The notes under the pieces are model-generated. The model was given only the letters and a program-made list of their open reading frames with translations. It searched no databases and was not told where the DNA came from. DNA of 64,000 bases, from positions 23,814 through 87,813 of the forward strand of contig CAZFIM010000002.1 in assembly GCA_964519615.1 (NCBI GenBank). Reading direction: 5' to 3'. Below are positions 11,265 to 51,944 of the stretch, piece after piece. Source of the stretch: an uncultured Dehalococcoidales bacterium. GTDB lineage: Bacteria > Chloroflexota > Dehalococcoidia > GIF9 > UBA5629. The translations under genes and the position numbers were made by a program. How positions within the stretch are numbered: the stretch's first letter is position 1; each line of letters begins with the position of its first letter.

Positions 11265-11445
11265 AAAAACCGGCCGTAATAGTTAGTCTTATTTGACTTA
11301 ATTATGCACGATATCCGGTTTTGTAATAAAGCAAAGCGATAGATGTGCATCTGCCGGGTTAAGCGGGCTAAATGCATATCTGACCACAGTGATTATTACA
11401 TGCTACAGCTAAAATAATGCCATATATATGCCTGAGGAGGTAAAA

Positions 11446-18189: not shown

Positions 18190-18432
18190 GATAAATCATT
18201 GTAGCACAGACGAATTTTACACATAAAAGATACGAAAGTATACATTATATCCAACTTTTTATCGTTTACAGAGAGCGGTAAATGCATGTTAAATACTACT
18301 GCAGCCAGATATTTAAGGCCAGGCAGGGCGGCGCATGTGTATGGGTATTGCAGGAACCCACTCTGTGATTTTTATTGTTTTTGTATTGTGAGAAGGTCCT
18401 GCATTGCCGATAACGATCCCGGAGGAATTGCG

Positions 18433-20808: not shown

Positions 20809-20848
20809 AAGAGCGGCAGGTTTAGTACGGGCAGGATAAGAGCGGTCA

Positions 20849-21769
20849 ATGGATAAACGGGAAGGAATTGTATTCCACATCATCAGAGGGTCTTTTGTGG
20901 ATGGATACGGAATCAGGACCACGGTATTTTTAAAGGGATGTCCTCTACGGTGTCTCTGGTGCTGCAACCCTGAAGGACAGCTAAAGCAGCTGCAGATCAA
21001 GTACACGCCCTCAGCGTGCAACAGCTGCGGAAGATGCGCCGAGGTCTGTCCGTATAATGCAATTCAAATCGGGCCGGATAAGAGGGCATTACTCAACAGG
21101 GAATTGTGCACTGATTGCGGACAATGTATAGATGTCTGCTTTACGGGGGCGCTTTCCTTTTTCGGCAAGGTGATGACTGTAGATGAGGTCTGGGATATAG
21201 TGAAGCAGGATGAGCGCTATTACCGTTCTTCCGGGGGAGGGGTCACCATCGGCGGCGGTGAACCGACCTTTCAACCTTATTTCACCTATGCTCTCATGAA
21301 AAGATGTCAGGAAAACCATATTCATGTGGCACTTGACACCTGCGGATATGTCGACAGCAAGCCCGTGCTGCGGTGTCTGGAGGAAGCTGACCTGCTGCTC
21401 TTTGATTTGAAGGGTCTGGATGAGGCGCGCCATAGGGACAATACCGGTGTATCGAATGAGCTGATTCTTAAAAACCTGATACGACTGGATGCCATGGGAA
21501 AAGCGATTATTATCAGATTGCCGCTCATTCCGGGATACACGGACTCGGAAATAAATATCGAAGCTACTGCCAAGCTTATATCCGGGCTTAAATCGGTAGA
21601 GAGGGTAGATCTTCTGGCCTATCACTTATATGGCTCTACAAAATACGAGCAATTAGGGATGCCCGATCGGCTGCGCATGCTGAATATTCAGCCTCTTGGC
21701 GGTGAAAGGCTCGCTGCCGTTATGGATGTGTTCTGTCGATACGATATAAAAGTTCAGATCGGAGGGTAG
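20849..21769 (+). CDS. glycyl-radical enzyme activating enzyme (radical SAM; PFL-AE family with ferredoxin-like insert)
   Basis: CPLRCLWC (Cx3Cx2C), two additional CxxCxxCxxxCP clusters, and the GGGEP SAM motif. Confidence 0.9.
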   Translation: MDKREGIVFHIIRGSFVDGYGIRTTVFLKGCPLRCLWCCNPEGQLKQLQIKYTPSACNSCGRCAEVCPYNAIQIGPDKRALLNRELCTDCGQCIDVCFTGALSFFGKVMTVDEVWDIVKQDERYYRSSGGGVTIGGGEPTFQPYFTYALMKRCQENHIHVALDTCGYVDSKPVLRCLEEADLLLFDLKGLDEARHRDNTGVSNELILKNLIRLDAMGKAIIIRLPLIPGYTDSEINIEATAKLISGLKSVERVDLLAYHLYGSTKYEQLGMPDRLRMLNIQPLGGERLAAVMDVFCRYDIKVQIGG

Positions 21770-36663: not shown

Positions 36664-37221
36664 ATGTTTGTATTACGAGGCATAAATAAATTCCTCATGC
36701 ATGTAGAAAAATTTATTGTCGTTTTAACGGGGAGCGGCCTCGTGGTTTCAATCTGCGTTCAAGTTATAGGGCGCTATATACTGCAAGTGCCCACACCGTG
36801 GGCTGAGGAAATAGCCAGATATTTATTTATCTGGATGGTGCTTGTCGGCGCCGGATATGTTCTGGCAATAAAAGACCATATTGAGATTGCTATTTTAGAC
36901 CAGTTGCTTGAAAAACTAAAAAATCCCGACAAAGCAAAAACGATACTGTTTGTGATTTCTACTATAGGCGGTATGGTTTTTATCGTTCTCTTTTCACTCA
37001 TTTATTACCGCTATCTGGTAAATATCAACCGCTACGGCGGTCAATTTTCAGCTGCGCTGCAAATCAACATGCTGATTCCCATGAGTGCTTTGCTCGTGGG
37101 TAATATCCTTATGTTATTTCACTCCATCTATTTATTGCTCGAGCTAATATTTAATTCACGTTCAAAAGCTGAGAGTGCAAAGCAAAGCAATATAGAAGAG
37201 ATGGGCATGAACTATGAATGA
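36664..37221 (+). CDS. TRAP transporter small permease, DctQ family
   Basis: 185 aa with 4 TM helices; overlaps the dctM start. Confidence 0.8.
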   Translation: MFVLRGINKFLMHVEKFIVVLTGSGLVVSICVQVIGRYILQVPTPWAEEIARYLFIWMVLVGAGYVLAIKDHIEIAILDQLLEKLKNPDKAKTILFVISTIGGMVFIVLFSLIYYRYLVNINRYGGQFSAALQINMLIPMSALLVGNILMLFHSIYLLLELIFNSRSKAESAKQSNIEEMGMNYE

Positions 37222-38530
37222 AATGATGCTGCTTGTCATATTTTTACTTATTTTCTTCGGTGCGGGCATTCTACTGCGGATCAACGTTGCTTTTTCACTC
37301 GGGCTTGCATCTCTTGGGTTGCTCTTTTTCGCCGGTGTCCAGGTTATTAACATTGCGGCACCTTCTTTTTCCGCTCTGGATAGTTTTCCATTGCTCGCTA
37401 TTCCGTTTTTTATGCTGGCAGGAACGGTTATGGAGCATGGCGGAATTTCCAGCAGCCTTGTTGGTTGGATCGATGCATTTGTTGGGCGTGTACGTGGTGC
37501 CATAGGTGCTATTACAGTGCTTGCAAGCATGGCGTTTGGTGTGCTCACCGGCTCTGCAATGGCAACTATCAGCTCGATAGGTAAGATGATGCACCCGGAA
37601 ATGGTACGCCGTGGTTATACGCCGGAATATGCAGGTGCATTAATTGCCGCTACCTGTTTTCTCGGTATTCTGATCCCTCCTTCTATACCGGGAATCATGT
37701 ATGCGTTATCCTCAGGGCAATCGATCTCCGATGTGTGGCTGTCAACTGTAGGCCCCGGTGTTCTTATAGGGATTGCTTATATCATATACAACTATTTTTC
37801 CGGTGGAAAAAAAGACAAATCTGTTGCAGATACCAAAGGTGTACTGGAATACTTTGCCAAGATAGGTCATAAGACGTGGTCAGCATCGCCTGCAATTATT
37901 ATGCCAATAATTATCTTCGGTGGTATATACGGCGGTGTTTTTACTCCTACAGAAGCAGGTGCTGTCTGTATGGCCTACGGAGTGGGGTTCTATCTTGTCA
38001 AGCGAGCACTCAAAAAGGACAGCGTTTCCAGTTCCATGTGGTTAATCTTTTTAACCGGTGGACTGGCCACAGCGACAATTTGTATCATCCAGATTTTTGC
38101 TAATACGGCCAGCCGTGCAATTTCACTGGCAGGTATTACCCAGGCACTTGCGGAGTTTATTGTTGCAAACGTAAGTGCGACATGGCAGTACTTATTAATC
38201 TGTAATGTGATCTTTTTGATTCTGGGCTGTCTTATAGATATTACAAGTGCGGTTCTAATGATGACACCGCTGTTGCTCCCTACAACACTGGCGATGGGAA
38301 TAGATCCAATCCATTTTGGTGGTATAATGCTTGTTAATCTGAGCATAGGCTTCATGACACCGCCATTTGCCGGAGGGCTATTTGTAGCCTGCAAAATATC
38401 TCAAGTACCGTATATTAAACTGGTAAGGGAATGCATTCCATTTTTAATAATCGGTATATGTGTTGTGATCTTTACAACCTTTGTGCCTGATATAGTACTT
38501 TTCCTACCAAAACTCCTGGCGACATCATAA
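37214..38530 (+). CDS. TRAP transporter large permease, DctM family
   Basis: 438 aa with 12 TM helices. Confidence 0.85.
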   Translation: MNEMMLLVIFLLIFFGAGILLRINVAFSLGLASLGLLFFAGVQVINIAAPSFSALDSFPLLAIPFFMLAGTVMEHGGISSSLVGWIDAFVGRVRGAIGAITVLASMAFGVLTGSAMATISSIGKMMHPEMVRRGYTPEYAGALIAATCFLGILIPPSIPGIMYALSSGQSISDVWLSTVGPGVLIGIAYIIYNYFSGGKKDKSVADTKGVLEYFAKIGHKTWSASPAIIMPIIIFGGIYGGVFTPTEAGAVCMAYGVGFYLVKRALKKDSVSSSMWLIFLTGGLATATICIIQIFANTASRAISLAGITQALAEFIVANVSATWQYLLICNVIFLILGCLIDITSAVLMMTPLLLPTTLAMGIDPIHFGGIMLVNLSIGFMTPPFAGGLFVACKISQVPYIKLVRECIPFLIIGICVVIFTTFVPDIVLFLPKLLATS

Positions 38531-38802
38531 CTTTATACAATTTATGAAGTATCGTCTAATCGAATCAAGCGTATTATTGTAAGCATTCAGTATGCGTTTC
38601 AAACCCGTTAAGCATCTTCCAGATATTTTTAGTAATTTCTCTATAATGTTGTTTCAAAGGGTTTCGATTCGACACAGTTACCTTTATAGTAGTTGGATAG
38701 GGTACACAGATTAACATACGAAGATGTGTTATCATTGTTATTAACCGGCCATTTACGGTCCGGTGAAAGGTTCGAACCCAGCAAACTACTGCCAGGAGGT
38801 GT

Positions 38803-39093
38803 ATGATAATCCAGATTACCGATATAGCCAAAGACAAACTTAAAGAGGTTCTCGATGAGAATCCCGGAAAATATATACGTGTTGTCATCGAGGGGATAGG
38901 CTGAAGCGGTCCCAGATTGGGATTAGCTCTGGATGAGCTAAAAGAAAATGAAAAAGCGGTGCAGATAAACGGCATCGATATCTTAATATCTGATACGGTT
39001 GGAGCTTTAGCAACGGATAAAAAGGTTGATTATGTAAAATCGTCATATGGAGAGGGTTTTGCGATAACTTCTCCGAATCAGACATGCTGCTGA
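38803..39093 (+). CDS. HesB/IscA-like small protein with in-frame TGA (38902-38904) at the conserved first-Cys position; probable selenoprotein
   Basis: Read-through translation gives MIIQITDIAKDKLKEVLDENPGKYIRVVIEGIG[U]SGPRLGLALDELKENEKAVQINGIDILISDTVGALATDKKVDYVKSSYGEGFAITSPNQTCC. This matches the IscA fold pattern (I.LT..A...L...G..IRV...GGCSG....L.LDE...D.V.......I.........VDY....EGF.I.NPN..C), with TGA exactly where the GCSG Cys sits. RBS AGGAGGTG precedes ATG 38803. A bulged hairpin AGCGGUCCC-AGAUU-GGGAUUAGCU starts 1 nt after the UGA. Confidence 0.55.
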
Positions 39094-39191
39094 TAGTGCG
39101 AGGATTTGCTGCCGGCGGGGGAATAAGAAAGTGTGCTGATAATCCGTTGTCAAGGAAAATAGTACACAGCTAAATATACATCGTGGCGCTG

Positions 39192-39753
39192 CTAGCTTTT
39201 TTTGCCGGAAAGCCCCAGCGTAAGGACACGCAGCAGACCGGCAATGCTTTTGGCATCGACGATTTCGCCGGAAGCGATAAGGTTCTGTACCTGCGACATA
39301 GGCACCTTCACTACCTCGATCTCATCCGTATCCTCTGCTTCAAGCTGGCTGTGCTCAAGCTGAGTAGCCAGGTAGAAATGCAGGTATTCGGTACAGTATC
39401 CCGGTGCTGAGTAGAACCCCCCCCAGCTTCTGAATTTTCTTGGGACGAAAGCCGATCTCTTCCTGTAGTTCCCTGCTTACCGCTTGCACCGGCTGTTCCC
39501 CCGGCTCTATACCGCCTGCCGGTATCTCAAGAAGGGTCTTTTCAACGGCCTTTCTATACTGTTTTACCATCAGGACGTTATCAGCCTCATCCAATACTAC
39601 TACGGCTATGCAGTCGCTGTGTTCCACGATTTCGCGTGTGGTCCGGCTTCCGTTCTCCTTTTCAACCGTATCCACGCGCAAATTGACCGCTCTGCCTTTA
39701 TAAATTTGCTCGCTTGAGAGTGTCTTCTCAACCACGTTAACCTCCTCCTGCAC
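39192..39753 (-). pseudogene. NUDIX hydrolase (ADP-ribose pyrophosphatase-like) interrupted by a frameshift at a C8/G8 homopolymer (39417-39424)
   Basis: The N-terminal part has a Nudix box GGIEPGEQPVQAVSRELQEEIGF. After ..KLGG the frame breaks at the G8 run, and the C-terminal part continues in another frame (FYSAPGYCTEYLHFYLATQLEHSQLEAEDTDEIEVVKVPM..) to TAG at 39192. Confidence 0.6.
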
Positions 39754-41117: not shown

Positions 41118-42590
41118 CTAGCCTGTAAAGAGTTTTGAGGCCGCCTGTGCCAGGCTTACAAAACTGCCCGGAATAATACCCAGCAGCAGCACGAAGAGGC
41201 AGGCTATACCCAAAGCTACGCGCAGCGCTATGGTCGATGGAACTTTCTCGCTGGAGGCAGGTTCTCCCGTCCACATTACCTTCACTACTCTGAGATAGTA
41301 GAAGGCTGAGATAACGCTGTTGATGACCGCGACCACGACCAGCCATACCAGCCCGTTTTGTACGGCTCCGTTGAAAATATAGAGCTTGGCGATAAGTCCG
41401 CCGGTAGGGGGCAGGCCTATTAGCGATATCATGCAGAAGCTGAGGGCTATAGCCAGCAGCGGTGCACGCCTGATCATACCGGTAAAATCGGAGATATCAT
41501 CGCTTGCTATTTTATTGGAGATGGCGATAATGGCGAAAAATGCTCCCAGGTTGGTGACAGCATAGCTCATAAGGAAGAAGATAAGCCCGCTCTGTCCCAG
41601 CAGGTCGCCTGTGGCTGCCATGCCTACCGTTGCCAGACCGACCATCAGATATCCTGCCTGGGCGATACTGGAGTAACCGAGCATACGCTTTATATTGGAC
41701 TGCAGGAGCGCCACAACATTACCCACAGTCATGGTGATAGCGGCCAGCACCGCGATAATCAGCCCCCATTCCAGGCTGAGCCAGACGGTGGATCCGAAGG
41801 CGGTGAAAAAGACCCGTGTTATAACCGCAAATCCCGCTGCTTTACTTGCCACGGAGAGATACGCGGTGACCGGTGTGGGAGCGCCTTCATAGACGTCCGG
41901 TACCCACATCTGGAAGGGGAAGCTGGCAATTTTAAATCCGAATCCGGCGATCATAAGCACAATGCCCATAAGCAGGCCGGGGCTTGCCAGCAGGCTGGTG
42001 AAAGGCATGGTCTCTACCACACCGGCAATGCATACCAGACAGGTATGCTGGGTGATGCCGAAGGTAAATGCCATGCCGTAGAGAAGCACCGCTGAAGATA
42101 CGGACCCAAGCAGTAAATATTTCAGGCCGGATTCGGTTGATTTCTCATCTTTTAAGAAGGTGGTCAGGACATAGAGTGAAATGCCGCTTAACTCCAGCGC
42201 AACAAAGACCGTAATCAGGTCTTCCGCTGCCGCCAGCAGCATCATCCCCATTGCCGATATCAGCAGCAGAGCGTAATACTCGCCCTGGAAGCGTTCGAAC
42301 TTATTTACGTAGTCCTGAGAAGCCAATATTACCAGACCGCAGGCCAGCAGCAGAACGATTTTGAAAAAGACCGCGAATTTATCCACCGCCAGCATGGCAA
42401 AAAAGGTATCAGTTGTGGGATGACTCCAGAGATTGATAGAGAAGCCGCATGCTACCAGCAGTGCCAGTATGCTGATTGCTGCCAGTATCTTCTTCTGCTT
42501 GATAAAAACATCGGCCAGAATTATTGCCAGAGCAGCGACCAGCAGTGTGATCTCCGGTGCGACCATGTATAGCTCGCTCACTATTACCAT
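41118..42590 (-). CDS. nuoN: NADH-quinone oxidoreductase subunit N
   Basis: 490 aa, 14 TM antiporter-like subunit at the 3' end of the nuo operon. Confidence 0.9.
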   Translation of the reverse strand: MVIVSELYMVAPEITLLVAALAIILADVFIKQKKILAAISILALLVACGFSINLWSHPTTDTFFAMLAVDKFAVFFKIVLLLACGLVILASQDYVNKFERFQGEYYALLLISAMGMMLLAAAEDLITVFVALELSGISLYVLTTFLKDEKSTESGLKYLLLGSVSSAVLLYGMAFTFGITQHTCLVCIAGVVETMPFTSLLASPGLLMGIVLMIAGFGFKIASFPFQMWVPDVYEGAPTPVTAYLSVASKAAGFAVITRVFFTAFGSTVWLSLEWGLIIAVLAAITMTVGNVVALLQSNIKRMLGYSSIAQAGYLMVGLATVGMAATGDLLGQSGLIFFLMSYAVTNLGAFFAIIAISNKIASDDISDFTGMIRRAPLLAIALSFCMISLIGLPPTGGLIAKLYIFNGAVQNGLVWLVVVAVINSVISAFYYLRVVKVMWTGEPASSEKVPSTIALRVALGIACLFVLLLGIIPGSFVSLAQAASKLFTG

Positions 42591-42636
42591 CTGTTCAGGT
42601 CATCCCATTTACATAACATTCCATTTATATTCATGA

Positions 42637-44106
42637 TCAGAATCCTGCTATTCTCACTATCGGTTCGATACCTGCCTTGATTATGTTCGTAAGCACAGCG
42701 GGGTAGATGCCGACGACCATAATGGCCAGCACGAATAGAAAGATGGAAATCTTCTCGATCGTATCGGCATCAGGAGTTCCCTCATACTTTTCCTGCGGTG
42801 GCCCGTAGAAGACCTTTTGCAGCATATAGAGAATATAGCCCGCCGTCAGCACAATGCCGAAGACGCCCAGCAGCGTATATATTTTAATTCCTGTCACAGC
42901 AGTACTGGAGAAGCAGCCGGTGAAGGTGATAAACTCGGCGGCAAAGCCGCTGGTTCCTGGAAGACCAAGAGATGCCAACCCGGCTATACTGAAAACCACC
43001 ACGATAACCGGCATCTGCCTGGCAAGTCCTCCCAGCGTATCTATATTGCGGTTGTGGGTCTTATCGTAGACAAGTCCCACCATAGCGAAGAGCAGCCCGG
43101 TGATGATGCCGTGGCTGAACATCTGCAGGGTTGCGCCGGTAAGGCTTATCTCATTCAAGGCAAATATACCCAGCAGTACATAGCCCATGTGGCTTACGCT
43201 GCTGTAGGCGATAAGCCGCTTCAGGTCGGTCTGTCTGAGCGTGATGCCTGCTCCGTATAATATGCCTATCACTGCCAGGATTACCAGTATCGGCGCATAG
43301 AGGCGTGCCATATCCGGCATGATGCTCACGCACAGGCGAATCATTCCGTAGCCTCCCATCTTCAGCAGCGCACCCGCCAGTATGACGCTCACCGCGGTGG
43401 GAGCATCGGTATGGGCATCAGGCAGCCACGTGTGGAAGGGGAACATAGGCAGTTTGATGGCAAAGCCGATAAAGAGCAGGAAGAACATCGCCGCCAGAGG
43501 TATTACCGGGCGTATGCCGGCACCTGCCAGCGCTATCATATCGAAGCTGCCGGTAGAGAAGTAGAGCGTTAGAATGCCCGCCATCATCATTGCGCTTCCG
43601 GTGAGGGTATACAGAACATACTTCATGGCGGAGTATTCTTTGCGGCCGCTGCCCCAGATGGAAATAAGGAAATACATGGGGAAGAGTTCAAGCTCCCAGA
43701 AAAGGAAGAAGAGTATCAGATCCAGCGAGCAGAAGACGCCGAGAATGCTCAGTTCCAGCAGCAGCAGCCAGATGAAATACTCCTTGATTCTGAGCGTTAC
43801 CTTCAATGATATCAGCACGGTGAGGAAGCCCAGAAAAGTCATCAGTATGACCATGGGCAGGTTGATGCCGTCCACGCCGACATGGTAAGAGGCATTGATA
43901 GCAGGAATCCAGGCTAGCTTCTCTTCAAACTGAATCCCGGAGGCAGCACGGTCGAATTGTGAAAAGACCACCAGCGAAAGCACGAACGCGGCCAGAGTAG
44001 CAATAAGGGCGGTGTACCTGATCGCTTTTTCCTGCCGTGAAGACAGGAAAGCGATAACTATCAGCCCGATTAGCGGGAGCAGCAATATTGTACTCAGATA
44101 ACCCAA
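42637..44106 (-). CDS. nuoM: NADH-quinone oxidoreductase subunit M
   Basis: 489 aa antiporter-like subunit. Confidence 0.9.
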   Translation of the reverse strand: MGYLSTILLLPLIGLIVIAFLSSRQEKAIRYTALIATLAAFVLSLVVFSQFDRAASGIQFEEKLAWIPAINASYHVGVDGINLPMVILMTFLGFLTVLISLKVTLRIKEYFIWLLLLELSILGVFCSLDLILFFLFWELELFPMYFLISIWGSGRKEYSAMKYVLYTLTGSAMMMAGILTLYFSTGSFDMIALAGAGIRPVIPLAAMFFLLFIGFAIKLPMFPFHTWLPDAHTDAPTAVSVILAGALLKMGGYGMIRLCVSIMPDMARLYAPILVILAVIGILYGAGITLRQTDLKRLIAYSSVSHMGYVLLGIFALNEISLTGATLQMFSHGIITGLLFAMVGLVYDKTHNRNIDTLGGLARQMPVIVVVFSIAGLASLGLPGTSGFAAEFITFTGCFSSTAVTGIKIYTLLGVFGIVLTAGYILYMLQKVFYGPPQEKYEGTPDADTIEKISIFLFVLAIMVVGIYPAVLTNIIKAGIEPIVRIAGF

Positions 44107-44117
44107 ATTACATTACC

Positions 44118-46040
44118 TCATCCGAACAAATATACACAAAGTGCAATTGCGATAATTCCAATAACAATGAACATCCCGTAGACCTGCAGCTGGCCTGTCT
44201 GCGCCTGCCGGATGACCCTGCTTGCCGCTGAGGTTCCGCTGGCGATGCCGTTGACTGCGCCGTCGACCGCTTTGCTGTCAAAGAATGAAAATGCCCTGAA
44301 AATGCCATTGTAGAGGACAGTGCGTATAATAACGTTTTCATAGAGCTCGTCCAGCCAGTACTTGCGTGAGAAAAGAAGATAAAGCGGTTTGAATATATTG
44401 CCCAGCGATTCTGCCGAAATAATTTTTGCACTGTAAACAATATATGCCGTCAGAATCCCCGCAAGGGCAACAGCAAGTGAGACCAAGGGTACCGGGTGTG
44501 TTAAGATGCCGAAGAAGCCGCCGAAAAAGCCGTGGACTTCATGTGCAGCCTCGTGCCCCATGAAAGCATCGAACCCACCCGCAGCATTCCACCATCCCGC
44601 TACAATAGAGAAGAATGCCAGGATAACGAGCGGGACCACCATTACCGGAGTGGACTCATGCGGCCCGTGATGCTCATGTGAGCTATGGCCGCTTTCCTCC
44701 GAGGGTGCTCCTCCCCTGTACTCCCCTCCGAATGTCATGAAAATAGCCCTGAACATGTAGAAAGCGGTCATAAAGACAGTTATCATCGCCAGATAGAACA
44801 GCAGCGGCTGTCCGCCCGCTCCTGCAACGATCTCGTCTTTACTCCAGAAACCGGATAAAGGCCATATTCCGGAAAGGCTGAGGGAACCGATAAGGAAGGT
44901 GGCATAGGTCCATGGCATGGTCTTGCGCAGGCCGCCCATCAACCGCATGTCAAAAGTATTGGTGCTGTGGTTGACGCTGCCCGCTCCTAAAAACAGGAGA
45001 GCTTTGAAGAAAGCATGTGTAAACAGATGGAATATGCCTGCAGCTATACCGGCTGTGCCCAATCCCAGCATCATATAGCCCAACTGGCTAATGGTGGAGT
45101 AAGCCAGCACGCGTTTGATATCGTTCATCACCAGGCCCATGCTGGCAGCGAAAATAGCAGTGAAGCCGCCGATATAGGCTACGGTTGCCAGGGCGGTGGG
45201 GGATGCTTCGAAGAAGGGATAAAAACGCGCCACCAGGAAAACGCCGGCGGCTACCATTGTCGCTGCATGTATCAGCGCGCTGACGGGTGTAGGACCTTCC
45301 ATGGCGTCCGGCAGCCAGACATGGAGCGGGAACTGTGCTGATTTGCCAGCGGCACCGGCAAAGATGCCCAGTGCCACCCATGTGAGCACGGTTCCGCTCA
45401 ATGTGCCCGCCAGCACCATAGCGTGCAGTTCCTCGGTATCGAAAGTACCTGTTGTGGTGAATAACATGAGAATGGCGGCTAAAAAGCCCAGGTCGCCAAA
45501 TCGGGTGACGATAAATGCCTTCTTGGCTGCGTTTGCCGCGGAAGGCTTGTGAAACCAGAAACCGATAAGCAGGTATGAACCCAGCCCCACTCCCTCCCAG
45601 AAGAGGAACATAAATACAAGATTATCCGCCATCACCAGGCCCAGCATGCATAATGTAAACAGTGACATGAAGGCATAGTAGCGTGGATACCCGGGATCTC
45701 CGTGCATATATCCCTGCGAATATATCTGTACCATCAAGCTGATAAAGCTCACTACCACCGCCATAACCGCTGTCAAGGAGTCAATCAGCAGTCCTGCGCT
45801 GATGCTTAAGTTCCCGATAACCAGCCACTGAATATCGGGCATATCCAGTTTGTGCCCCGGAGTGCCCATCACGGCGATCAGCATCCAGATGGACAGCACG
45901 CATGAGATGCCTATCGCGGCAATTGTCACGTATCCGCTCAACCGCGGTCTGTCATTAAAAAACGGCCGCAAGATAAAGGCGATGAGCAGCAGCGAAATCA
46001 CCGGAAAAAGGAGTATCAGCCATGGTACCTGATAGGGCAT
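44118..46040 (-). CDS. nuoL: NADH-quinone oxidoreductase subunit L
   Basis: 640 aa antiporter-like subunit with a C-terminal long-helix extension. Confidence 0.9.
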   Translation of the reverse strand: MPYQVPWLILLFPVISLLLIAFILRPFFNDRPRLSGYVTIAAIGISCVLSIWMLIAVMGTPGHKLDMPDIQWLVIGNLSISAGLLIDSLTAVMAVVVSFISLMVQIYSQGYMHGDPGYPRYYAFMSLFTLCMLGLVMADNLVFMFLFWEGVGLGSYLLIGFWFHKPSAANAAKKAFIVTRFGDLGFLAAILMLFTTTGTFDTEELHAMVLAGTLSGTVLTWVALGIFAGAAGKSAQFPLHVWLPDAMEGPTPVSALIHAATMVAAGVFLVARFYPFFEASPTALATVAYIGGFTAIFAASMGLVMNDIKRVLAYSTISQLGYMMLGLGTAGIAAGIFHLFTHAFFKALLFLGAGSVNHSTNTFDMRLMGGLRKTMPWTYATFLIGSLSLSGIWPLSGFWSKDEIVAGAGGQPLLFYLAMITVFMTAFYMFRAIFMTFGGEYRGGAPSEESGHSSHEHHGPHESTPVMVVPLVILAFFSIVAGWWNAAGGFDAFMGHEAAHEVHGFFGGFFGILTHPVPLVSLAVALAGILTAYIVYSAKIISAESLGNIFKPLYLLFSRKYWLDELYENVIIRTVLYNGIFRAFSFFDSKAVDGAVNGIASGTSAASRVIRQAQTGQLQVYGMFIVIGIIAIALCVYLFG

Positions 46041-46234
46041 CAGAGTTTTCTCAAGACCTCCTCAACTACATGGACTCTTTCCTGTGAGACGTAGATGTTG
46101 TATCCGGCCTGCAGTTGTGAGCCCGGCTTTTCCGGGTCCGGCAGCAGGCGGGTGGGGATTCCCTCACCCTCGAACAACTCCTTCCACATCTCTGCTATTA
46201 TTAGATTAGGAGCGCTTTTTACATGAACCCACAT
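46040..46234 (-). CDS. small DUF2007-like protein inserted between nuoK and nuoL
   Basis: 64 aa: MWVHVKSAPNLIIAEMWKELFEGEGIPTRLLPDPEKPGSQLQAGYNIYVSQERVHVVEEVLRKL. This matches the DUF2007 pattern (L..A..L...LLE.EGIP..L...........I.V.EE....A.E.L). Its stop overlaps the nuoL start as TGATG. Confidence 0.55.
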   Translation of the reverse strand: MWVHVKSAPNLIIAEMWKELFEGEGIPTRLLPDPEKPGSQLQAGYNIYVSQERVHVVEEVLRKL

Positions 46235-46244
46235 ATTAGCTTCT

Positions 46245-46556
46245 CTACCATTTAGTCAGATCGAACTTATCGACATTTATTGACTGTCGGTTGCGGTAAA
46301 TTGCGATGATAATGGCAATTCCCACCGCTGCTTCTGCGGCCGCAACGGCCATAACGAATATAGCGAATATCTGTCCCGTCAGCAATGACGGGTCTGAATA
46401 GCGCGAGAAAGCGATGAGCGCTATATTAACCGCATTGAGCATAATCTCAATACACATAAGTATTATGACGGCATTACGCTTGGCCAGTACGCCGTACAGG
46501 CCTATGGAGAACAGAATAACCGAAAGAATTAAATAGTGCTCCAGCGTTACTGCCAT
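46245..46556 (-). CDS. nuoK: NADH-quinone oxidoreductase subunit K
   Basis: 103 aa, 3 TM, conserved E residues. Confidence 0.9.
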   Translation of the reverse strand: MAVTLEHYLILSVILFSIGLYGVLAKRNAVIILMCIEIMLNAVNIALIAFSRYSDPSLLTGQIFAIFVMAVAAAEAAVGIAIIIAIYRNRQSINVDKFDLTKW

Positions 46557-46560
46557 AGAA

Positions 46561-47046
46561 TTACTTCTCCCTGATGAGCACGATCGCTCCCAGTATCGCC
46601 GTTAACAGCAGCACAGCCGTTATCTCCACTGGCAGCAGATATCCTCCCATCCCGAAAAGGCGTGAGCCTAAAAAGGCTACTGTCGGCTCCTGCGGAGGCG
46701 TTGTGCTGATAAACCAAGCTGTATGGACGATCGATAGTATCAGTATTATTGCCAGCAGCCCTCCTATGATCAATGCGGGAAGGCGCAGTCTGCCGGAAGG
46801 ATTGCCGTGTTGCGCATCTCTAGTAAGCATTATCCCCACGATGATCAGAATGGAGATGGCGCCGACGTAGACCAGTATCTGGACCACAGCCAGAAAATCT
46901 GCGTGCAAGGTAATATAGATGCCTGCTATAGTGATGAAGAGCAGCACCAGTGAGAGCGCCGCACGAAAGACATCGCGCAGCAGCACAACCGCTGCCGCTG
47001 CGGCAACCGTTATAATCGACAGTATCCAGAAAGCTGCATCAAACAC
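46561..47046 (-). CDS. nuoJ: NADH-quinone oxidoreductase subunit J
   Basis: 161 aa, 5 TM. Confidence 0.85.
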   Translation of the reverse strand: MFDAAFWILSIITVAAAAAVVLLRDVFRAALSLVLLFITIAGIYITLHADFLAVVQILVYVGAISILIIVGIMLTRDAQHGNPSGRLRLPALIIGGLLAIILILSIVHTAWFISTTPPQEPTVAFLGSRLFGMGGYLLPVEITAVLLLTAILGAIVLIREK

Positions 47047-47587
47047 CGCGCCCTCTCTTTTTGCTCAGCGGGAAGTAATAAAGCTTTTGCCCGCCTTCTT
47101 CACGTTCTTTATCGCCGTAGACGAGCAGAGTTTGTTTGGGCAGTGAGGCGGCGAACTCCGGCCGCATATAACCGCTGGGCTGTTTCAGCGCCGGCGAGAT
47201 CTGCTCTTTTGACAGCACCAGATCCTTGCGGCGGTACTGTGCCCGCTCATAGCTCATCCCCATTGCAAGGGCATTATAGGGGCATGACTCCACGCACAAA
47301 CCGCAAAACATACATCTGCCTGTATCGACCTCAAATTTATCAACGATATAGTGCCCCTTGCCGTCGCTGTGGGTTACTATCTCGATATTGCCCTGCGGGC
47401 ACGCTTTGGCGCAGGTGGCACAGCCGGTGCACCGCTCCTGCAGCCATACCAGCTCATTGCCGCGCAGCCTGCGCGACATGACCAGTTTTTCCTCCGGGTA
47501 CTGAACGGTGATGGGCTGGCGGAAGAAATGTTGGAGGGTAAGTGCCATTCCTTTCAGTATCCCTTTGCCGTAGCGCTCAAACTTCAA
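47039..47587 (-). CDS. nuoI: NADH-quinone oxidoreductase subunit I (2x[4Fe-4S])
   Basis: CTGCATCAKACP and CMFCGLCVESCP motifs. Confidence 0.9.
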   Translation of the reverse strand: MKFERYGKGILKGMALTLQHFFRQPITVQYPEEKLVMSRRLRGNELVWLQERCTGCATCAKACPQGNIEIVTHSDGKGHYIVDKFEVDTGRCMFCGLCVESCPYNALAMGMSYERAQYRRKDLVLSKEQISPALKQPSGYMRPEFAASLPKQTLLVYGDKEREEGGQKLYYFPLSKKRGRGV

Positions 47588-48689
47588 CCTTGCCGCCTCC
47601 CAGTGTAAACAGTCTGGACCAGAGCAGAATCAGGACGCCCGCCAGCGCAAAATTGATTAAGAGAATAACCCAGGGGAGTGTCTGGGGTATCCACAGTACC
47701 TCCAGCGCGATAATGAAGAGATTGATAACCGCCATTGGGAAAAGCCCTTTCCAGGCAAAGGACATGAGCTGATCCACGCGCAGCCGCGGAAGGGTGCCGC
47801 GTATCCAGACGATTACCAGAAAGACGATAAGCATTTTTATTAAGAACCAGATGATTCCCGGCAAGAGAGGGCCTTTCCAGCCGCTTAAGAAAAGAGAGGT
47901 GATGATTGCCGAGTATACCACAGTGTGCCCATACTCTCCCAGATAGAACATGGCGAATTTCATGCCGGAGTACTCGGTGTGATACCCTGCTACTATCTCC
48001 GAGTCCGCTTCCAGCAGATCGAAGGGACAGCGGTTCATCTCCGCCAGCGCTCCGATAAAAAAGATAATAAAACCCAGCGGCTGCAGCAGGATAAAGGGGA
48101 CGGTCTGAACTTCCACAATCTGGTTTATGGAGAGTGATCCTACCATAAGCACCACTCCCAGGAGTGAGAGCACTACCGGCAGCTCATAGCTCACCATCTG
48201 CGCTACTGTGCGCATGGCGGCAATTAGTGCGTATTTATTGTTGGAAGACCAGCCTGCCATGTAAATACCGACGGCGGAGATAGAGCTGATAGCGATAATA
48301 TAGACGATGCCCACGTTGAGGTCTGCGTATATCGCCCCGCGGTGTATGGGGATGACAGCGAAGATAAGCAGTATGGGAATGAATACCACCAGAGGTGCCA
48401 GAAAATGAATAACCTTATCAGCTTTGGCCGGTACGATGTCCTCTTTGAGAAGTATCTTGACCGCGGTGGCAATAGGCTGGAAAATGCCTTCCGGTCCCAG
48501 CCGGTTGGGTCCCAGCCGTATTTGGAAACGTCCTAATGCCCTGCGCTCGACATAGATAAACACGATTACCATTGTGAGTACAAGACCCAGTATGACGATA
48601 ATTCCGGCTACGGAAGGAAGCAGATATGCCGCCCAGTGAGGCATATAATGTGACAGCCACAGTTCGAACTGCTCCAGAAGCGTCATCAT
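47577..48689 (-). CDS. nuoH: NADH-quinone oxidoreductase subunit H
   Basis: Conserved VERRALGRFQIRLGPNRLGP motif. The first ATG overlaps the nuoD stop as ATGA. The longer ORF to 48710 was discarded. Confidence 0.85.
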   Translation of the reverse strand: MMTLLEQFELWLSHYMPHWAAYLLPSVAGIIVILGLVLTMVIVFIYVERRALGRFQIRLGPNRLGPEGIFQPIATAVKILLKEDIVPAKADKVIHFLAPLVVFIPILLIFAVIPIHRGAIYADLNVGIVYIIAISSISAVGIYMAGWSSNNKYALIAAMRTVAQMVSYELPVVLSLLGVVLMVGSLSINQIVEVQTVPFILLQPLGFIIFFIGALAEMNRCPFDLLEADSEIVAGYHTEYSGMKFAMFYLGEYGHTVVYSAIITSLFLSGWKGPLLPGIIWFLIKMLIVFLVIVWIRGTLPRLRVDQLMSFAWKGLFPMAVINLFIIALEVLWIPQTLPWVILLINFALAGVLILLWSRLFTLGGGKVEV

Positions 48690-49789
48690 CGGTCTATCTC
48701 CGCAAGACAAATGTCAATACTGCCGAAGGTAATAATGAGATCGGCGATCTTCCAGCCGCGTACCATATCCCGCAGGGCGGTCAGGTTAAGCAGCTCGCAG
48801 GGACGTACGTGAAAACGGTAGGGTGCAATGGAGTTATCGCTCACCAGGTAGAAGGCAAGCTCTCCCTTTGGAGCTTCGATACGGCCGTAGACCTCTCCCG
48901 CAGGCGGACGCAGCAGCAGAGGTACATCTGTACAGACCTCTCCCGGCGGGATATCTTTAACGGCTTGTTTGAGGATTTTTACGCTCTCTCGCATTTCCAG
49001 CATTTTCACCATGAAGCGGTCATAGCAGTCCCCGTTTTCTCCCGTGGGGATATCGAAATCGAATCTATCATAGATCGAATACGGGGCAGCGCGCCGCAGG
49101 TCCCATTTCATGCCGCTGGCTCTGAGCACGGGGCCGCTGGCGCCGCTGTTTACGGCCAGTTCGCGGGACAGTACGCCCACACCTTTACTGCGTACCAGCA
49201 GTATCTCATTTTCGGAGAGCAATTGCTCGTATTCGTCTATAAAGCCGGGCATCTCATCGATGAAGCGCTCCAGAGCCGGCATAAACTCCTCCGGCAGGTC
49301 CTGGCTGACGCCTCCGATGCGCATATAATTATAGGTAAGCCTCTGCCCGCAGACCATCTCGAACAGGTCCATAATCTTCTCACGTTCACGCCACATGTAA
49401 AGCACGGGCGTCATCATTGCCCCCATATCGTTAAGGAAAAAGCCTACACCCATCAGATGGCTGGATATACGCATAAGCTCGGCCATGATTATTCTGATGT
49501 ACTCCGCTCTTTCCGGAACGGCTATATCGGCAAGCTTCTCTACCGACATGACATACGCCAGGTTATTGGTCATCGAAGTAAGATAGTCCAGCCGGTCAGT
49601 GAAAGGTATATTCTGCGTATAGGTACGGCCTTCAGCCAATTTTTCTATACCGCGGTGCAGGTATCCGATGACGGGTTCCACGTCGACGATGACCTCACCA
49701 TCGAGCGTTACCCTCATCCTGAATACTCCGTGTGTGGAGGGATGCTGCGGCCCCATATTCAATATGAATGGTTCTGTCCGTAACGCCAT
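48686..49789 (-). CDS. nuoD: NADH-quinone oxidoreductase subunit D (49 kDa)
   Basis: 367 aa NuoD; not fused to NuoC. Confidence 0.9.
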   Translation of the reverse strand: MALRTEPFILNMGPQHPSTHGVFRMRVTLDGEVIVDVEPVIGYLHRGIEKLAEGRTYTQNIPFTDRLDYLTSMTNNLAYVMSVEKLADIAVPERAEYIRIIMAELMRISSHLMGVGFFLNDMGAMMTPVLYMWREREKIMDLFEMVCGQRLTYNYMRIGGVSQDLPEEFMPALERFIDEMPGFIDEYEQLLSENEILLVRSKGVGVLSRELAVNSGASGPVLRASGMKWDLRRAAPYSIYDRFDFDIPTGENGDCYDRFMVKMLEMRESVKILKQAVKDIPPGEVCTDVPLLLRPPAGEVYGRIEAPKGELAFYLVSDNSIAPYRFHVRPCELLNLTALRDMVRGWKIADLIITFGSIDICLAEIDR

Positions 49790-50260
49790 TTAGAGATAGT
49801 CCCTCCGCAGGGGGTGTCCCGGGAACCCTTCCCAGAGAAACAGCCGTTTGAGATTGGGATGTCCGGTAAAAGTTATACCCATCAGGTCATAAAGCTCTCT
49901 TTCCTGATAGTCCGCTGCCCGCCATAGATCGTATACAGAGTCTATGACAGGGTTTTGACGGTCATAGAGATGCGTTTTCAGTACGAGACTGTGGTTGTGT
50001 TCGAGCGATACCAGATGATAGACAAGTTCGAAGCGGTCCAGATAGTCGACCGCGGTAAGGCTGGCAAGATAATCGAACCTCATATCCTGCGCGTTCTTTA
50101 AATGTTCGGCAGTCCGGTAAAGTATATCTGAGCCGACCACCATCGTGTTTTCACCCTGGATGGTAATTTCGCCCGGTACTGCTTGTGCTATCTTCTGTTT
50201 GACCTCTTCGGCATTTAAATGGACTGTCAAAGAAACTATGTGCCTCCGTATGTTTTGCAT
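49790..50260 (-). CDS. nuoC: NADH-quinone oxidoreductase subunit C (30 kDa)
   Basis: 156 aa. Confidence 0.85.
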   Translation of the reverse strand: MQNIRRHIVSLTVHLNAEEVKQKIAQAVPGEITIQGENTMVVGSDILYRTAEHLKNAQDMRFDYLASLTAVDYLDRFELVYHLVSLEHNHSLVLKTHLYDRQNPVIDSVYDLWRAADYQERELYDLMGITFTGHPNLKRLFLWEGFPGHPLRRDYL

Positions 50261-50271
50261 GCTGCGGGAGT

Positions 50272-50871
50272 CTAGATTTTATGTCTGGCCAGCGAATCGT
50301 TGCCTATCTTTTTATGCAGCATGGTTATTGCGTGAATAAGCCCTTCCGGTCTGGGTGGGCACCCCGGTACATAGACATCGACAGGAACGATATGATTGAT
50401 ACCCGGAACGACACTGTACGATTCTCTGAATGTTCCTCCGCTGATAGCACAGGCTCCCATCGCGATCACCCATTTAGGCTCAGCCATCTGCTCGTAGATC
50501 ATTTTGACGGCCGGGGCCATTTTCCAGGTGAGCGTGCCGGCCACGATCATAAGGTCTGCCTGACGTGGTGACCAGCGGAAGATATCCATGCCGAAACGGG
50601 AGATATCGAAACGCGAGCATGCTGTCCCGATCATCTCGAAGGCGCAGCATGCCAGGCCGAACATGAGTGGAAATATGGAACGGGAACGTGCCCAATCCAG
50701 AATATAATCGACTGTGGTGAGGCCTATATTGCGCTTAAGCTCCTCATCGAGCCACGCATCGGGGTCAGGAATGACGTACTTTTCAGCGTTTTCCCGCAGG
50801 CGTATTATACGCTCCGCTTCCGCTATATCGATCTCATGAGAGGAAGCGATCTGAGGCCTTTCTATTTCCAC
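50272..50871 (-). CDS. nuoB: NADH-quinone oxidoreductase subunit B (20 kDa, N2 cluster)
   Basis: [17 protein letters not shown] and VPGCPP motifs. Confidence 0.9.
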
Positions 50872-51284
50872 TCGAGCGCTCCTTTAAGCCATGCGTAGAC
50901 ATAGCCGACCATGAGTATGAAAAAGAATACTACTATAGCCACCAGTCCGAAAACGCCCAGATTCTTGAGGTTGACCGCCCAGGGATAGAGAAAAACCGTC
51001 AGGACATCCAGCGCAACGAACAGTATAGCAAAAAAATAGTACCTGAAATTAAACTGTACCCATGTATTACCGATAGTCTCGATTCCGCACTCATAAGGCG
51101 AGGTTTTTACTTCGTTGCTTTTCCTTGGAACCAGTCCCATGAGTCCAAGTAATAAAGGCACCAAAGGCATTATGACTGTAAATACTATGGCAACAATGAG
51201 AAGGATGCCAATATAGCCGTAACCAGCTAACACCGGGAATACCTCCTTTGCGCCATCACGCGACGCCAACGGCGAGTATACCAT
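50862..51284 (-). CDS. nuoA: NADH-quinone oxidoreductase subunit A
   Basis: 3 TM; conserved SPYECGIE motif. Start trimmed to ATG 51284. The 194 aa ORF extending to 51446 would overlap rsmD. Confidence 0.7.
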
Positions 51285-51392
51285 ATACTTTTCTCTATTT
51301 GCAATGCTTTGTAGTGTCACTGATTTTGTGTAAAATTTGATAATTGGACTAATACGCGCTGCACGGTATAATAGGTACGCACGATTTACACT

Positions 51393-51944
51393 ATGCGAAT
51401 TACAGGCGGTACAGCAAAAGGGCAGCAGCTCAAAGTGCCGGAGCACGTCCGGATGAGACCTACTACGGACAGGGTGAGGGAAGCGGTATTTTCTCTTCTG
51501 GCCTCTTATGAGTGTGCGTGGGAACGAGTGCTGGACCTCTATGCCGGAACCGGCGCATTGGGTATTGAATCACTTAGCAGGGATGCCGTATGGGTTGATT
51601 TTGTTGACCGGGAACCCAGATGTTGTGCTATCATTAAACAAAATCTGGAGAAGACCGGATTCATACGCAATGCGCACGTCTATTGCGCCGCGGTCAATAA
51701 AGCGTTGACATTTCTCGATGGCATATACGACGTGGTTTTTATGGATCCGCCATATTCCGATACGGCGTTGGAGAACGTGATTGAACAACTGGATAACTCA
51801 GATTGTATCGGCGACGGTTCGCTTATAGTAGTCTCGCATTCATCGCGGGTTCTCCTGTCCGCATGCTACGGCAGGCTTCACATATGCAAGGAACGCCGCT
51901 ATGGAGATACAGGTATTTCTCTATTCCTCAGGGAGGCTGACTAG
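51393..51944 (+). CDS. rsmD: 16S rRNA (guanine966-N2)-methyltransferase RsmD
   Basis: DLYAGTGALGIE and the DPPY motif. Confidence 0.85.
   Translation: MRITGGTAKGQQLKVPEHVRMRPTTDRVREAVFSLLASYECAWERVLDLYAGTGALGIESLSRDAVWVDFVDREPRCCAIIKQNLEKTGFIRNAHVYCAAVNKALTFLDGIYDVVFMDPPYSDTALENVIEQLDNSDCIGDGSLIVVSHSSRVLLSACYGRLHICKERRYGDTGISLFLREAD

What the first reader, a model, noticed from the sequence alone, without database searches (positions are those of the whole stretch)
38803..39093. IscA/HesB-like ORF with UGA exactly at the conserved GCSG cysteine: probable selenoprotein with a candidate SECIS hairpin
Translation through the TGA at 38902-38904 yields a 96 aa protein that matches the IscA/HesB fold along its whole length. 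The stop falls precisely on the first conserved Cys (GIG-U-SGP where IscA has GGCSG), which is the usual signature of Sec/Cys family pairs. Coding potential continues 190 nt past the TGA. The gene has a strong RBS. A bulged stem-loop AGCGGUCCC-AGAUU-GGGAUUAGCU begins 1 nt after the UGA and has G and U in its apical loop. A HesB-like selenoprotein family has been reported in comparative selenoproteome surveys. Here the C-terminal CGCG motif is reduced to ..TCC, which is unusual.
Basis: partly seen in the sequence, partly recalled or inferred. Interest (0 to 1): 0.65.

Follow-up and report, generated by a model that had tools for sequence, protein, structure and literature searches.

The report
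HesB-like selenoprotein gene with SECIS
This is a real but ordinary member of the known "HesB-like" selenoprotein family: a small IscA-type protein whose first metal-binding cysteine is replaced by selenocysteine, encoded by an in-frame UGA that is read with the help of a conserved RNA hairpin about 20 nt downstream, and that ordinary gene callers split into two fragments.

Summary
ORF 38803-39093(+) has an in-frame TGA at 38902-38904, and read-through gives a 96-aa IscA/HesB-domain protein with the TGA on the first ligand Cys (GCSG). The selenoprotein reading is strongly supported. In 80 related loci from several phyla, 80 genes (window included) carry TGA at this position and 6 carry TGT/TGC. 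The downstream frame is conserved. Two independent assemblies 98% identical to the window keep the TGA. TGA is an ordinary stop in 12 of 48 window genes. The motif U-x-G-P matches the published HesB-like selenoprotein family. Two details need correcting. That hairpin meets all four published bSECIS constraints, is 96% paired across the family with GC/GU/AU exchanges, and fixes synonymous codons (CTG 80/80, GAG 80/80). The "...CC" C-terminus is also common in the family (17/80). Sec machinery is not in the window and the rest of the genome could not be searched. The protein scores below the curated NCBIfam cut-offs, as do its Dehalococcoidia and Geobacter relatives. Verdict: a new member of a known kind, of low interest apart from correcting the annotation.

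The parts
38794..38801 (+). Shine-Dalgarno-like AGGAGGTG, 1 nt upstream of the ATG (3 nt after the AGGAGG core)
   Evidence: Read directly from the sequence. The start at 38803 agrees with homologues that begin M-x-x-I-T-D.
38803..39093 (+). Coding sequence of a 96-residue HesB/IscA-like selenoprotein (Sec33; stop codon included)
   Evidence: Translation; Pfam PF01521; best NCBIfam hit NF038090 IscA_HesB_Se, 70.1 bits; 38 protein homologues; 80 genomic loci.
38902..38904 (+). UGA codon read as selenocysteine (Sec33), in the motif G-U-S-G-P
   Evidence: TGA in 80 genes and TGT/TGC in 6 at the aligned codon. It aligns to the Cys of GCSG in 2apn and 1nwb. It is kept in the independent assemblies L081 and L082.
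38923..38941 (+). Conserved bacterial SECIS hairpin UUAGCUC-UGGAU-GAGCUAA (loop 38930-38934; 6-bp core 38924-38940), which also encodes L-A-L-D-E-L
   Evidence: 96.3% of cells paired; pair 27-41 is GC 66 / GU 8 / AU 6 with none broken. It is the only helix in the RNAalifold consensus. It folds at -8.2 kcal/mol, z -4.0. Codons GCT 78/80, CTG 80/80, GAT 76/80 and GAG 80/80 are fixed, while Cys paralogues vary. There are 25 nt between the UGA and the loop.
38905..38928 (+).
   Evidence: Folds at -9.7 kcal/mol. Pairing is 81.3% against 80.8% in shuffles (127/500); pair 12-24 is unpaired in 56/80. The loop starts 9 nt after the UGA.
39085..39090 (+). Codons for the C-terminal Cys95-Cys96, the presumed partners of Sec33
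   Evidence: The last Cys is invariant in alignment A1. The family's C-terminal types were counted.
39091..39096 (+). Tandem stops TGA-TAG; this TGA has no SECIS behind it and terminates translation
   Evidence: Sequence. 57 of 80 family genes also end in TGA.

Best explanation
The 291-nt gene at 38803-39093(+) encodes a 96-residue HesB-like (IscA/A-type-carrier fold) selenoprotein. During translation the UGA at 38902 is not read as stop. The hairpin at 38923-38941 (6-7 bp stem, loop UGGAU) acts as a bacterial SECIS that recruits SelB-GTP-Sec-tRNASec, so selenocysteine is inserted at position 33, which is the first of the three cluster/metal-ligand cysteines of IscA-type proteins. The C-terminal Cys95-Cys96 supply the remaining thiols. 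Shown here: the gene, the conserved UGA, the Sec/Cys pairs, the conserved frame, the conserved hairpin under RNA-level selection, and that TGA is otherwise a stop in this genome. Inferred: SelB binding, actual Sec insertion, and the biochemical role. The role is most likely a selenolate/thiolate site that binds Fe or an Fe-S cluster, or performs a redox or metal(loid)-handling step. No member of the family has an assigned function.
For: Translation and coordinates. PF01521 above its gathering score. Best NCBIfam hit is the Sec-specific model NF038090. Sec aligns to the GCSG Cys of solved ErpA/IscA-type proteins. 80 TGA against 6 Cys codons at the aligned site in loci from Dehalococcoidia, Desulfuromonadales/Geobacter, Desulfobulbaceae, Bacillaceae, Tissierellia, Leptospirales, SAR324 and others. 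The nearest homologues include a TGC form (P0002) and a TGA form (P0001). The hairpin at 38923-38941 shows 96% pairing with compensatory GC/AU changes, is the sole RNAalifold helix, folds at -8.2 kcal/mol with z -4.0, and sits on codon-level fixation that the Cys paralogues lack. It fits the published bSECIS constraints: loop 3-9 nt, stem 4-16 bp, G in loop position 1-2, 16-37 nt spacing, MFE <= -7.5 (PMC13188914). TGA ends 12 of 48 Pfam-supported genes in the window. Two independent metagenome assemblies keep the TGA, and the gene differs only by V->I and one synonymous change. The family is published with motif UxGP, and a methanogen member was confirmed by 75Se labelling (PMC11097638).
Against: The window holds no tRNA-Sec, selA, selB or selD, and the rest of the genome could not be examined. 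The protein scores below the curated cut-offs of NF038090 (70.1 vs 85) and TIGR01911 (44.4 vs 66.35). There is no expression or protein-level evidence. No promoter or terminator consensus was found on the + strand around the gene. The loci were retrieved with peptide patterns that include GLALDE, so amino-acid conservation of that motif is inflated by ascertainment; the codon-level fixation is not.
Confidence: 0.88

Rival explanations
1. Decayed pseudogene: an IscA-like gene whose ligand Cys codon (TGC/TGT) mutated to TGA, so only a 33-residue peptide is made.
For: Gene callers split it into 33 + 58 aa ORFs. No Sec machinery is in the window. The neighbouring NUDIX gene in the window carries a frameshift.
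Against: TGA sits at the same codon in 80 genes across several phyla with an intact, conserved downstream frame. Two strains 1.5-2% diverged keep the TGA and show only a conservative and a synonymous change in the gene. The RNA hairpin behind the TGA is under codon-level selection.
Confidence: 0.03
2. UGA is decoded here, but as cysteine or another standard amino acid and not as Sec. One route is a tRNASec-like selC* tRNACys(UCA) delivered by a SelB paralogue, as described in some anaerobes. Another is a genome-wide TGA reassignment.
For: selC* tRNACys species with GCA or UCA anticodons exist in anaerobic bacteria (PMC5389517), and one with a GCA anticodon lies in related locus L057. Many metagenome callers translated this TGA as Trp.
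Against: TGA is a normal stop for 12 of 48 genes in the window, including this gene's own stop, which rules out genome-wide reassignment. The 'W' calls are artefacts of callers switching code on short contigs; both W positions in P0001 are TGA, and the second is the true stop. No selC* gene is in the window. The selC* route has been shown only in a few lineages.
Confidence: 0.04
3. Sequencing or assembly error: the true codon is TGC or TGT.
For: The window has at least one probable homopolymer-length error nearby (C8 vs C7 at 39410-39417). A close relative (P0002) does have TGC.
Against: Two independent assemblies from different samples have the same TGA. The errors seen are indels in homopolymers, not substitutions. 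TGA is the majority state in the family.
Confidence: 0.01
4. The antisense ORF 38574-38975(-), 133 aa, is the real gene and the + strand reading is spurious.
For: It is the longest uninterrupted ORF over the region. Antisense frames are often open across the family (median 82 codons).
Against: Variation among the 80 genes falls on third positions of the + frame. The + frame carries the Pfam and PDB homology. The antisense ORF runs into the non-coding upstream spacer. Open antisense frames are a common by-product of codon composition.
Confidence: 0.01

Closest known systems
HesB-like selenoprotein family (Kryukov/Zhang/Gladyshev surveys; TIGR01911 HesB_rel_seleno, NF038090 IscA_HesB_Se; motif UxGP)
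   Same: Same domain, the same Sec position on the first conserved Cys, the same U-x-G-P motif (U-S-G-P here), Sec/Cys pairs among homologues, small size (~95-110 aa), a SECIS directly downstream, and occurrence in anaerobes.
   Different: The window protein and its Dehalococcoidia, Desulfuromonadales and Geobacter relatives score ~70 bits on NF038090 (cut-off 85) and 28-45 on TIGR01911 (cut-off 66.35). Only the Desulfobulbaceae type passes (136-148 bits). The C-terminus is a bare Cys-Cys, not the Cys-rich GxCSSGSC tail.
A-type Fe-S cluster carriers IscA / SufA / ErpA (PF01521; PDB 1s98, 1r94, 2apn, 1nwb)
   Same: Homologous over the whole length (residues 2-95). The first ligand position and the C-terminal Cys are conserved, and the D-E after the ligand loop is shared.
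   Different: Sec replaces the first Cys. The C-terminal C-G-C-G is reduced to C-C. All IscA, SufA and ErpA equivalog models score far below their cut-offs. The gene is not in an isc, suf or nif context; its neighbours are a TRAP transporter, NUDIX, GNAT and NAD kinase.
Bacterial SECIS elements (E. coli fdhF type; Zhang and Gladyshev consensus model)
   Same: A hairpin inside the coding sequence just 3' of the UGA, with a small apical loop carrying G-G at positions 2-3, 25 nt from the UGA, at -8.2 kcal/mol.
   Different: No bulged U as in fdhF. The sequence is family-specific and nearly invariant across phyla because it doubles as the codons for A-L-D-E. SelB binding has not been tested.
HesB-like orf7 of the Bacillus sp. 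CDB3 ars1 operon (arsRYCDATorf7orf8)
   Same: The Bacillaceae and Tissierellia Sec-type relatives found here sit beside arsA, arsC-like LMW-PTP, arsR and DSP phosphatase genes, the same association as in CDB3.
   Different: The window gene has no ars neighbours and is only 35-38% identical to that subgroup (GFG-U-GQP, no G-E-G-F motif).

Membership tests
HesB-like selenoprotein family | In-frame UGA aligned with the first conserved Cys of the HesB/IscA domain | tested here: met
   Alignment to 2apn and 1nwb puts the codon on the Cys of GCSG. The same column is TGA in 80 genes.
HesB-like selenoprotein family | U-x-G-P motif | tested here: met
   U-S-G-P at residues 33-36. The motif is listed for the family in PMC13188914.
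HesB-like selenoprotein family | Cys-containing homologues at the Sec position (Sec/Cys pair) | tested here: met
   6 TGT/TGC genes in the loci. P0002, 63% identical, has TGC.
HesB-like selenoprotein family | Score above the curated HMM cut-off (NF038090 >= 85 bits or TIGR01911 >= 66.35 bits) | tested here: not met
   70.1 and 44.4 bits with U->C. Undoubted Sec-bearing relatives from Dehalococcoidia, Desulfuromonadales, Geobacter, Leptospirales and Tissierellia also fall short, and only the Desulfobulbaceae type passes. The models therefore cover part of the family; NF038090 is still the top hit.
HesB-like selenoprotein family | Conserved reading frame downstream of the UGA | tested here: met
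   Invariant A42 L43 D44 E45 G85 F86 C96 in A1 and full-length translations in 80 loci.
HesB-like selenoprotein family | Host encodes selA, selB, selC (tRNA-Sec) and selD | not testable with these tools
   None in the 64-kb window or in 1.17 Mb of related loci. The rest of the genome is not available.
HesB-like selenoprotein family | Selenium actually incorporated (75Se labelling or MS) | not testable with these tools
   Shown only for the Methanococcus maripaludis member (PMC11097638).
Bacterial SECIS (consensus model) | Apical loop of 3-9 nt on an upper stem of 4-16 bp | tested here: met
   Loop UGGAU (5 nt) with a 6-7 bp stem at 38923-38941.
Bacterial SECIS (consensus model) | G in the first two loop positions, usually followed by G or U | tested here: met
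   The loop is U-G-G-A-U; the three central loop columns (alignment columns 33-35, G-G-A) are invariant in 80 sequences.
Bacterial SECIS (consensus model) | 16-37 nt between the UGA and the apical loop | tested here: met
25 nt (38905-38929) for hairpin 38923-38941.
Bacterial SECIS (consensus model) | MFE <= -7.5 kcal/mol | tested here: met
   -8.2 kcal/mol for the 19-nt hairpin, z -4.0, and 0 of 200 shuffles fold as well.
Bacterial SECIS (consensus model) | Binds SelB and is required for UGA read-through | not testable with these tools
   Needs a reporter or binding assay.
A-type Fe-S carrier (IscA/SufA/ErpA) | PF01521 domain above the gathering score | tested here: met
   30.2 bits vs 26.3, residues 1-92.
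A-type Fe-S carrier (IscA/SufA/ErpA) | Three ligand cysteines C...C-x-C (GCSG and CGCG) | tested here: not met
   The first is Sec and the C-terminus is C-C without the intervening residue.
A-type Fe-S carrier (IscA/SufA/ErpA) | Equivalog HMM cut-offs (IscA, SufA, ErpA) | tested here: not met
   Scores of 24.7-45.3 bits against cut-offs of 117-181.

The most novel reading that the evidence does not exclude
The clade containing the window gene (Dehalococcoidia, Desulfuromonadales and Geobacter type; bare C or CC terminus; below both curated HMM cut-offs) could be a functionally separate selenoprotein subfamily. Its Sec plus one or two C-terminal thiols might bind a metal(loid) such as As(III), as the ars-operon context of the Bacillota relatives hints, and not carry Fe-S clusters. 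Its almost sequence-invariant SECIS across phyla might then reflect horizontal spread of a gene-plus-SECIS cassette.
Probability: 0.1. Interest if true: 0.45.

Novelty: new member of a known kind. Interest (0 to 1): 0.2.

Why it matters
The main value is correct annotation. Standard pipelines split this gene into 33-aa and 58-aa fragments (as JGI did) or switch short contigs to a TGA=Trp code, so the selenoprotein is missed or mistranslated. It marks the host, probably a Dehalococcoidia-like anaerobe, as a likely user of selenocysteine. It also adds a clade to the HesB-like family that the current NCBIfam cut-offs do not capture. The family-wide data give a clean example of a SECIS under dual constraint, where the RNA hairpin and the A-L-D-E codons occupy the same nucleotides. 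This could serve as a precise search pattern for the family. None of it changes what is known about Sec decoding.

Tried and rejected
(1) tRNA-Sec search with ARAGORN in the window and 60 loci found none. (2) Rfam at gathering threshold on the window, and a permissive scan of 38500-39400, gave only a chance lncRNA hit at E = 2.4. (3) Pfam annotation of 48 window genes found no SelA, SelB or SelD. (4) tblastn of E. coli SelA, SelB and SelD against the window plus 1.17 Mb of loci gave no hits. (5) A scan for other TGA-split ORFs in the window found nothing convincing; the hits were adjacent genes in the same frame or short extensions. That scan was restrictive and missed the target gene itself. 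(6) Neighbourhood clustering across the 80 loci found conservation only within clades and nothing shared with the window. (7) The promoter/terminator scan found no + strand signals.

Full report
OBSERVATION. An ATG at 38803 is preceded by AGGAGGTG (38794-38801). The frame runs to TGA 38902-38904, continues open for another 62 codons, and ends at TGA 39091-39093, followed directly by TAG. Mechanical ORF listing shows the two halves as separate ORFs of 33 aa and 58 aa. With the TGA read as Cys, the 96-residue product matches Pfam PF01521 (Fe-S_biosyn, the IscA/HesB domain) over residues 1-92 at 30.2 bits against a gathering score of 26.3. It also matches solved ErpA/IscA-type proteins (2apn E = 6e-8, 1nwb, 1s98/1r94). 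In those alignments the TGA codon falls exactly on the Cys of the G-C-S-G ligand loop.

IS THE TGA MEANINGFUL? A protein search returned 38 homologues at 43-64% identity, plus a 58-aa fragment 100% identical to the downstream half. Many of them show 'W' at the TGA position and again just after the last Cys, where the stop should be. Fetching the DNA showed that both W residues in P0001 are TGA. They are artefacts of gene callers that switched short contigs to a TGA=Trp code. P0002 (63% identical) has a true TGC at the same position. A scan of one genome per species returned 80 loci. Over these loci and the window, the aligned codon is TGA in 80 genes, TGT in 5 and TGC in 1, always with an intact, conserved downstream frame. 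The hosts are Dehalococcoidia (the closest, up to 62%), Desulfuromonadales/Geobacter, Desulfobulbaceae, Bacillaceae, Tissierellia, Leptospirales, SAR324, Deferribacteraceae and others. Several loci carry a Sec copy and a Cys paralogue 600-700 bp apart (L036, L070, L072, L075), and L004 has two tandem Sec copies. Within the window, TGA ends 12 of 48 Pfam-supported genes, so the genome uses the standard code and this TGA needs dedicated recoding. Two independent JGI metagenome assemblies from different samples are 98.0-98.5% identical to the window over 2.4-3.7 kb. Both keep the TGA, and within the gene they differ only by one Val->Ile change and one synonymous change. Sequencing error and a decaying pseudogene are therefore very unlikely.

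THE SECIS. The window's minimum-energy fold shows two tandem hairpins after the UGA. On an ungapped alignment of 80 Sec genes, that structure pairs in 81.3% of cells against 80.8% in column shuffles (127 of 500 shuffles do as well). One of its pairs is unpaired in 56 of 80 sequences, and its loop begins only 9 nt after the UGA. The second hairpin, 38923-38941 (UUAGCUC-UGGAU-GAGCUAA), pairs in 96.3% of cells. Pair 27-41 is GC in 66 sequences, GU in 8 and AU in 6, and is never broken; the window is one of the AU cases. Pair 25-43 switches between UA and CG. RNAalifold, run without any structure imposed, returns this helix and nothing else. Coding constraint alone does not explain the conservation. 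The four codons inside the hairpin are fixed at the codon level (GCT 78/80, CTG 80/80 out of six possible Leu codons, GAT 76/80, GAG 80/80). Comparable Gly, Leu, Ala and Pro codons a few positions away have 1.2-2.1 bits of codon entropy, and the six Cys paralogues use GCA/GCC, CTA/CTT/CTC, GAC and GAA/GAT/CAG at these positions. The hairpin meets every constraint of the published bacterial SECIS model (loop 3-9 nt, stem 4-16 bp, G in the first two loop positions followed by G or U, 16-37 nt from the UGA, MFE <= -7.5 kcal/mol; PMC13188914). Its loop is UGGAU, its stem 6-7 bp, its spacing 25 nt, and its energy -8.2 kcal/mol with z = -4.0. One caveat applies. The loci were retrieved with peptide patterns that include GLALDE, so amino-acid conservation of that motif is inflated by ascertainment. 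The codon-level fixation and the contrast with Cys paralogues are not affected. Two Cys forms (L070 and P0002/L083) still carry a perfect hairpin, the 'fossil SECIS' pattern already described for a Desulfitobacterium HesB-like gene (PMC1794560).

WHAT IT IS AND HOW IT WORKS. The best-supported reading is a selenoprotein gene. SelB carrying Sec-tRNASec is recruited by the 38923-38941 hairpin while the ribosome sits on UGA 38902, and Sec is inserted at position 33. The gene's second TGA (39091) has no such element behind it and terminates translation, backed up by TAG. The protein has the A-type-carrier fold, with Sec in place of the first ligand Cys and Cys95-Cys96 at the C-terminus. The last Cys is invariant in the family. 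SelB binding, real Sec insertion and the biochemical role are inferences. The role is presumably a selenolate/thiolate site that binds Fe or an Fe-S cluster, or handles a redox or metal(loid) substrate. For the one experimentally confirmed member (Methanococcus maripaludis, by mutagenesis and 75Se labelling), the function is still described as unclear, and a disruption mutant had no nitrogen-fixation defect (PMC11097638).

CONTEXT. The gene stands alone between a TRAP transporter operon (dctPQM, + strand) and a convergent NUDIX-GNAT-NAD kinase-nuo block. No + strand promoter or terminator consensus was detected. Neighbourhoods of the 80 homologous loci are conserved only within clades and share nothing with the window. 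No tRNA-Sec, SelA, SelB or SelD is encoded in the window or in 1.17 Mb of related loci. This says only that the machinery is unlinked.

COMPARISON WITH WHAT IS KNOWN. The HesB-like selenoprotein family has been in the prokaryotic selenoproteome catalogues since the mid-2000s (11 members counted in PMC1794560; listed as a known family in the Sargasso Sea survey of 2005, PMC1088965). It is listed with motif UxGP under TIGR01911 in a 2026 review. The window protein has U-S-G-P, the right Sec position, Sec/Cys pairs and a SECIS. Its best NCBIfam hit is the Sec-specific model NF038090, but at 70.1 bits against a cut-off of 85, and it scores 44.4 against 66.35 for TIGR01911. The same is true of clearly Sec-bearing relatives from Dehalococcoidia, Desulfuromonadales, Geobacter, Leptospirales and Tissierellia. 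Only the Desulfobulbaceae type passes, at 136-148 bits. I therefore file it as a member of the family as the literature defines it, in a clade that the curated HMM cut-offs do not reach. It is not an IscA, SufA or ErpA orthologue: those equivalog models score far below their cut-offs, and the C-x-C motif is absent.

VERDICT. The SECIS assignment moves about 18 nt downstream, to 38923-38941, and the C-terminus is not unusual. This is a new member of a known kind, and the practical consequence is an annotation fix. Interest is low (0.2). The most novel reading still open is that this sub-cut-off clade has a distinct role, for instance in metal(loid) handling. That is suggested only indirectly, by ars-operon neighbours in distant Bacillota relatives, an association already reported for Bacillus sp. 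CDB3 (PMC4562236). I give it about 10%.

Noticed in passing
window 39192-39753 (- strand), homopolymer at 39410-39417: The NUDIX (ADP-ribose pyrophosphatase-like) gene is split over two frames in the window (132-aa and 39-aa ORFs). Contigs L081 and L082, 98% identical, encode an intact 186-aa protein. The window has C8 where both others have C7, and lacks one G at about 39754. This is probably a homopolymer-length assembly error, or else a real frameshift.
   Followed up: partly
L081 (window-equivalent positions 36936 and 37478): Conversely, L081 lacks one base in an A-run and one in a T-run, which fragments its dctQ and dctM into four ORFs; the window's copies are intact. The assemblies of this population carry homopolymer indels but no substitution at the Sec codon.
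   Followed up: partly
L057 1520-1609 (- strand): A 90-94 nt tRNA scores 52.8 bits on Rfam tRNA-Sec (gathering score 47) but has a GCA (Cys) anticodon. This fits the published selC* tRNACys class (PMC5389517). It lies about 8.5 kb from a TGT-type HesB-like gene whose hairpin loop is UUGAU and not UGGAU.
   Followed up: partly
L034, L044, L055, L067, L073 (Bacillaceae) and L042, L077 (Tissierellia), within about 5 kb upstream of the Sec gene: The Sec-type HesB-like gene sits beside arsenic-resistance genes: ArsA ATPase, an ArsC-like LMW phosphatase, ArsR and a dual-specificity phosphatase. This matches the known ars1 operon of Bacillus sp. CDB3 (orf7 HesB-like, orf8 DSP) and hints at a metalloid-related role for that subgroup. 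There is no such context in the window.
   Followed up: partly
P0001, P0003, P0009, P0012 and others (metagenome protein calls); L084 163-507: Many database proteins of this family carry Trp at the Sec position and read through the true TGA stop into junk C-terminal extensions. The gene callers chose a TGA=Trp code on short contigs. This is a systematic annotation artefact caused by selenoprotein genes.
   Followed up: yes
L004 9710 and 10097; L036, L070, L072, L075; L083 325-400: There are tandem Sec-Sec duplicates (L004) and adjacent Sec/Cys paralogue pairs (L036, L070, L072, L075). The Cys forms in L070 and in L083 (P0002) keep a perfect SECIS hairpin ('fossil SECIS'), which indicates recent Sec-to-Cys conversion.
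   Followed up: partly
window 39091-39093 and the family generally: The gene uses TGA both for Sec and as its own terminator, 189 nt apart; 57 of 80 family genes also end in TGA. The window backs the terminator up with an adjacent TAG.
   Followed up: no
window 41118-51446 (- strand): The nuo operon has the order A-B-C-D-H-I-J-K-L-M-N with no nuoE/F/G between D and H. This is an 11-subunit complex-I-like enzyme that lacks the NADH-oxidising module.
   Followed up: no
window 11428-15441 and 18286-21769 (+ strand): The window holds a 1337-aa fusion of two BcrAD/BadFG-type ATPase domains with DUF2229 (a CoA-enzyme activase type). Nearby are a glycyl-radical enzyme (PFL-like, 840 aa) and its radical-SAM activase, next to a second TRAP transporter with fused DctQM. 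This points to an anaerobic fermentative lifestyle, consistent with a Sec-using anaerobe.
   Followed up: no
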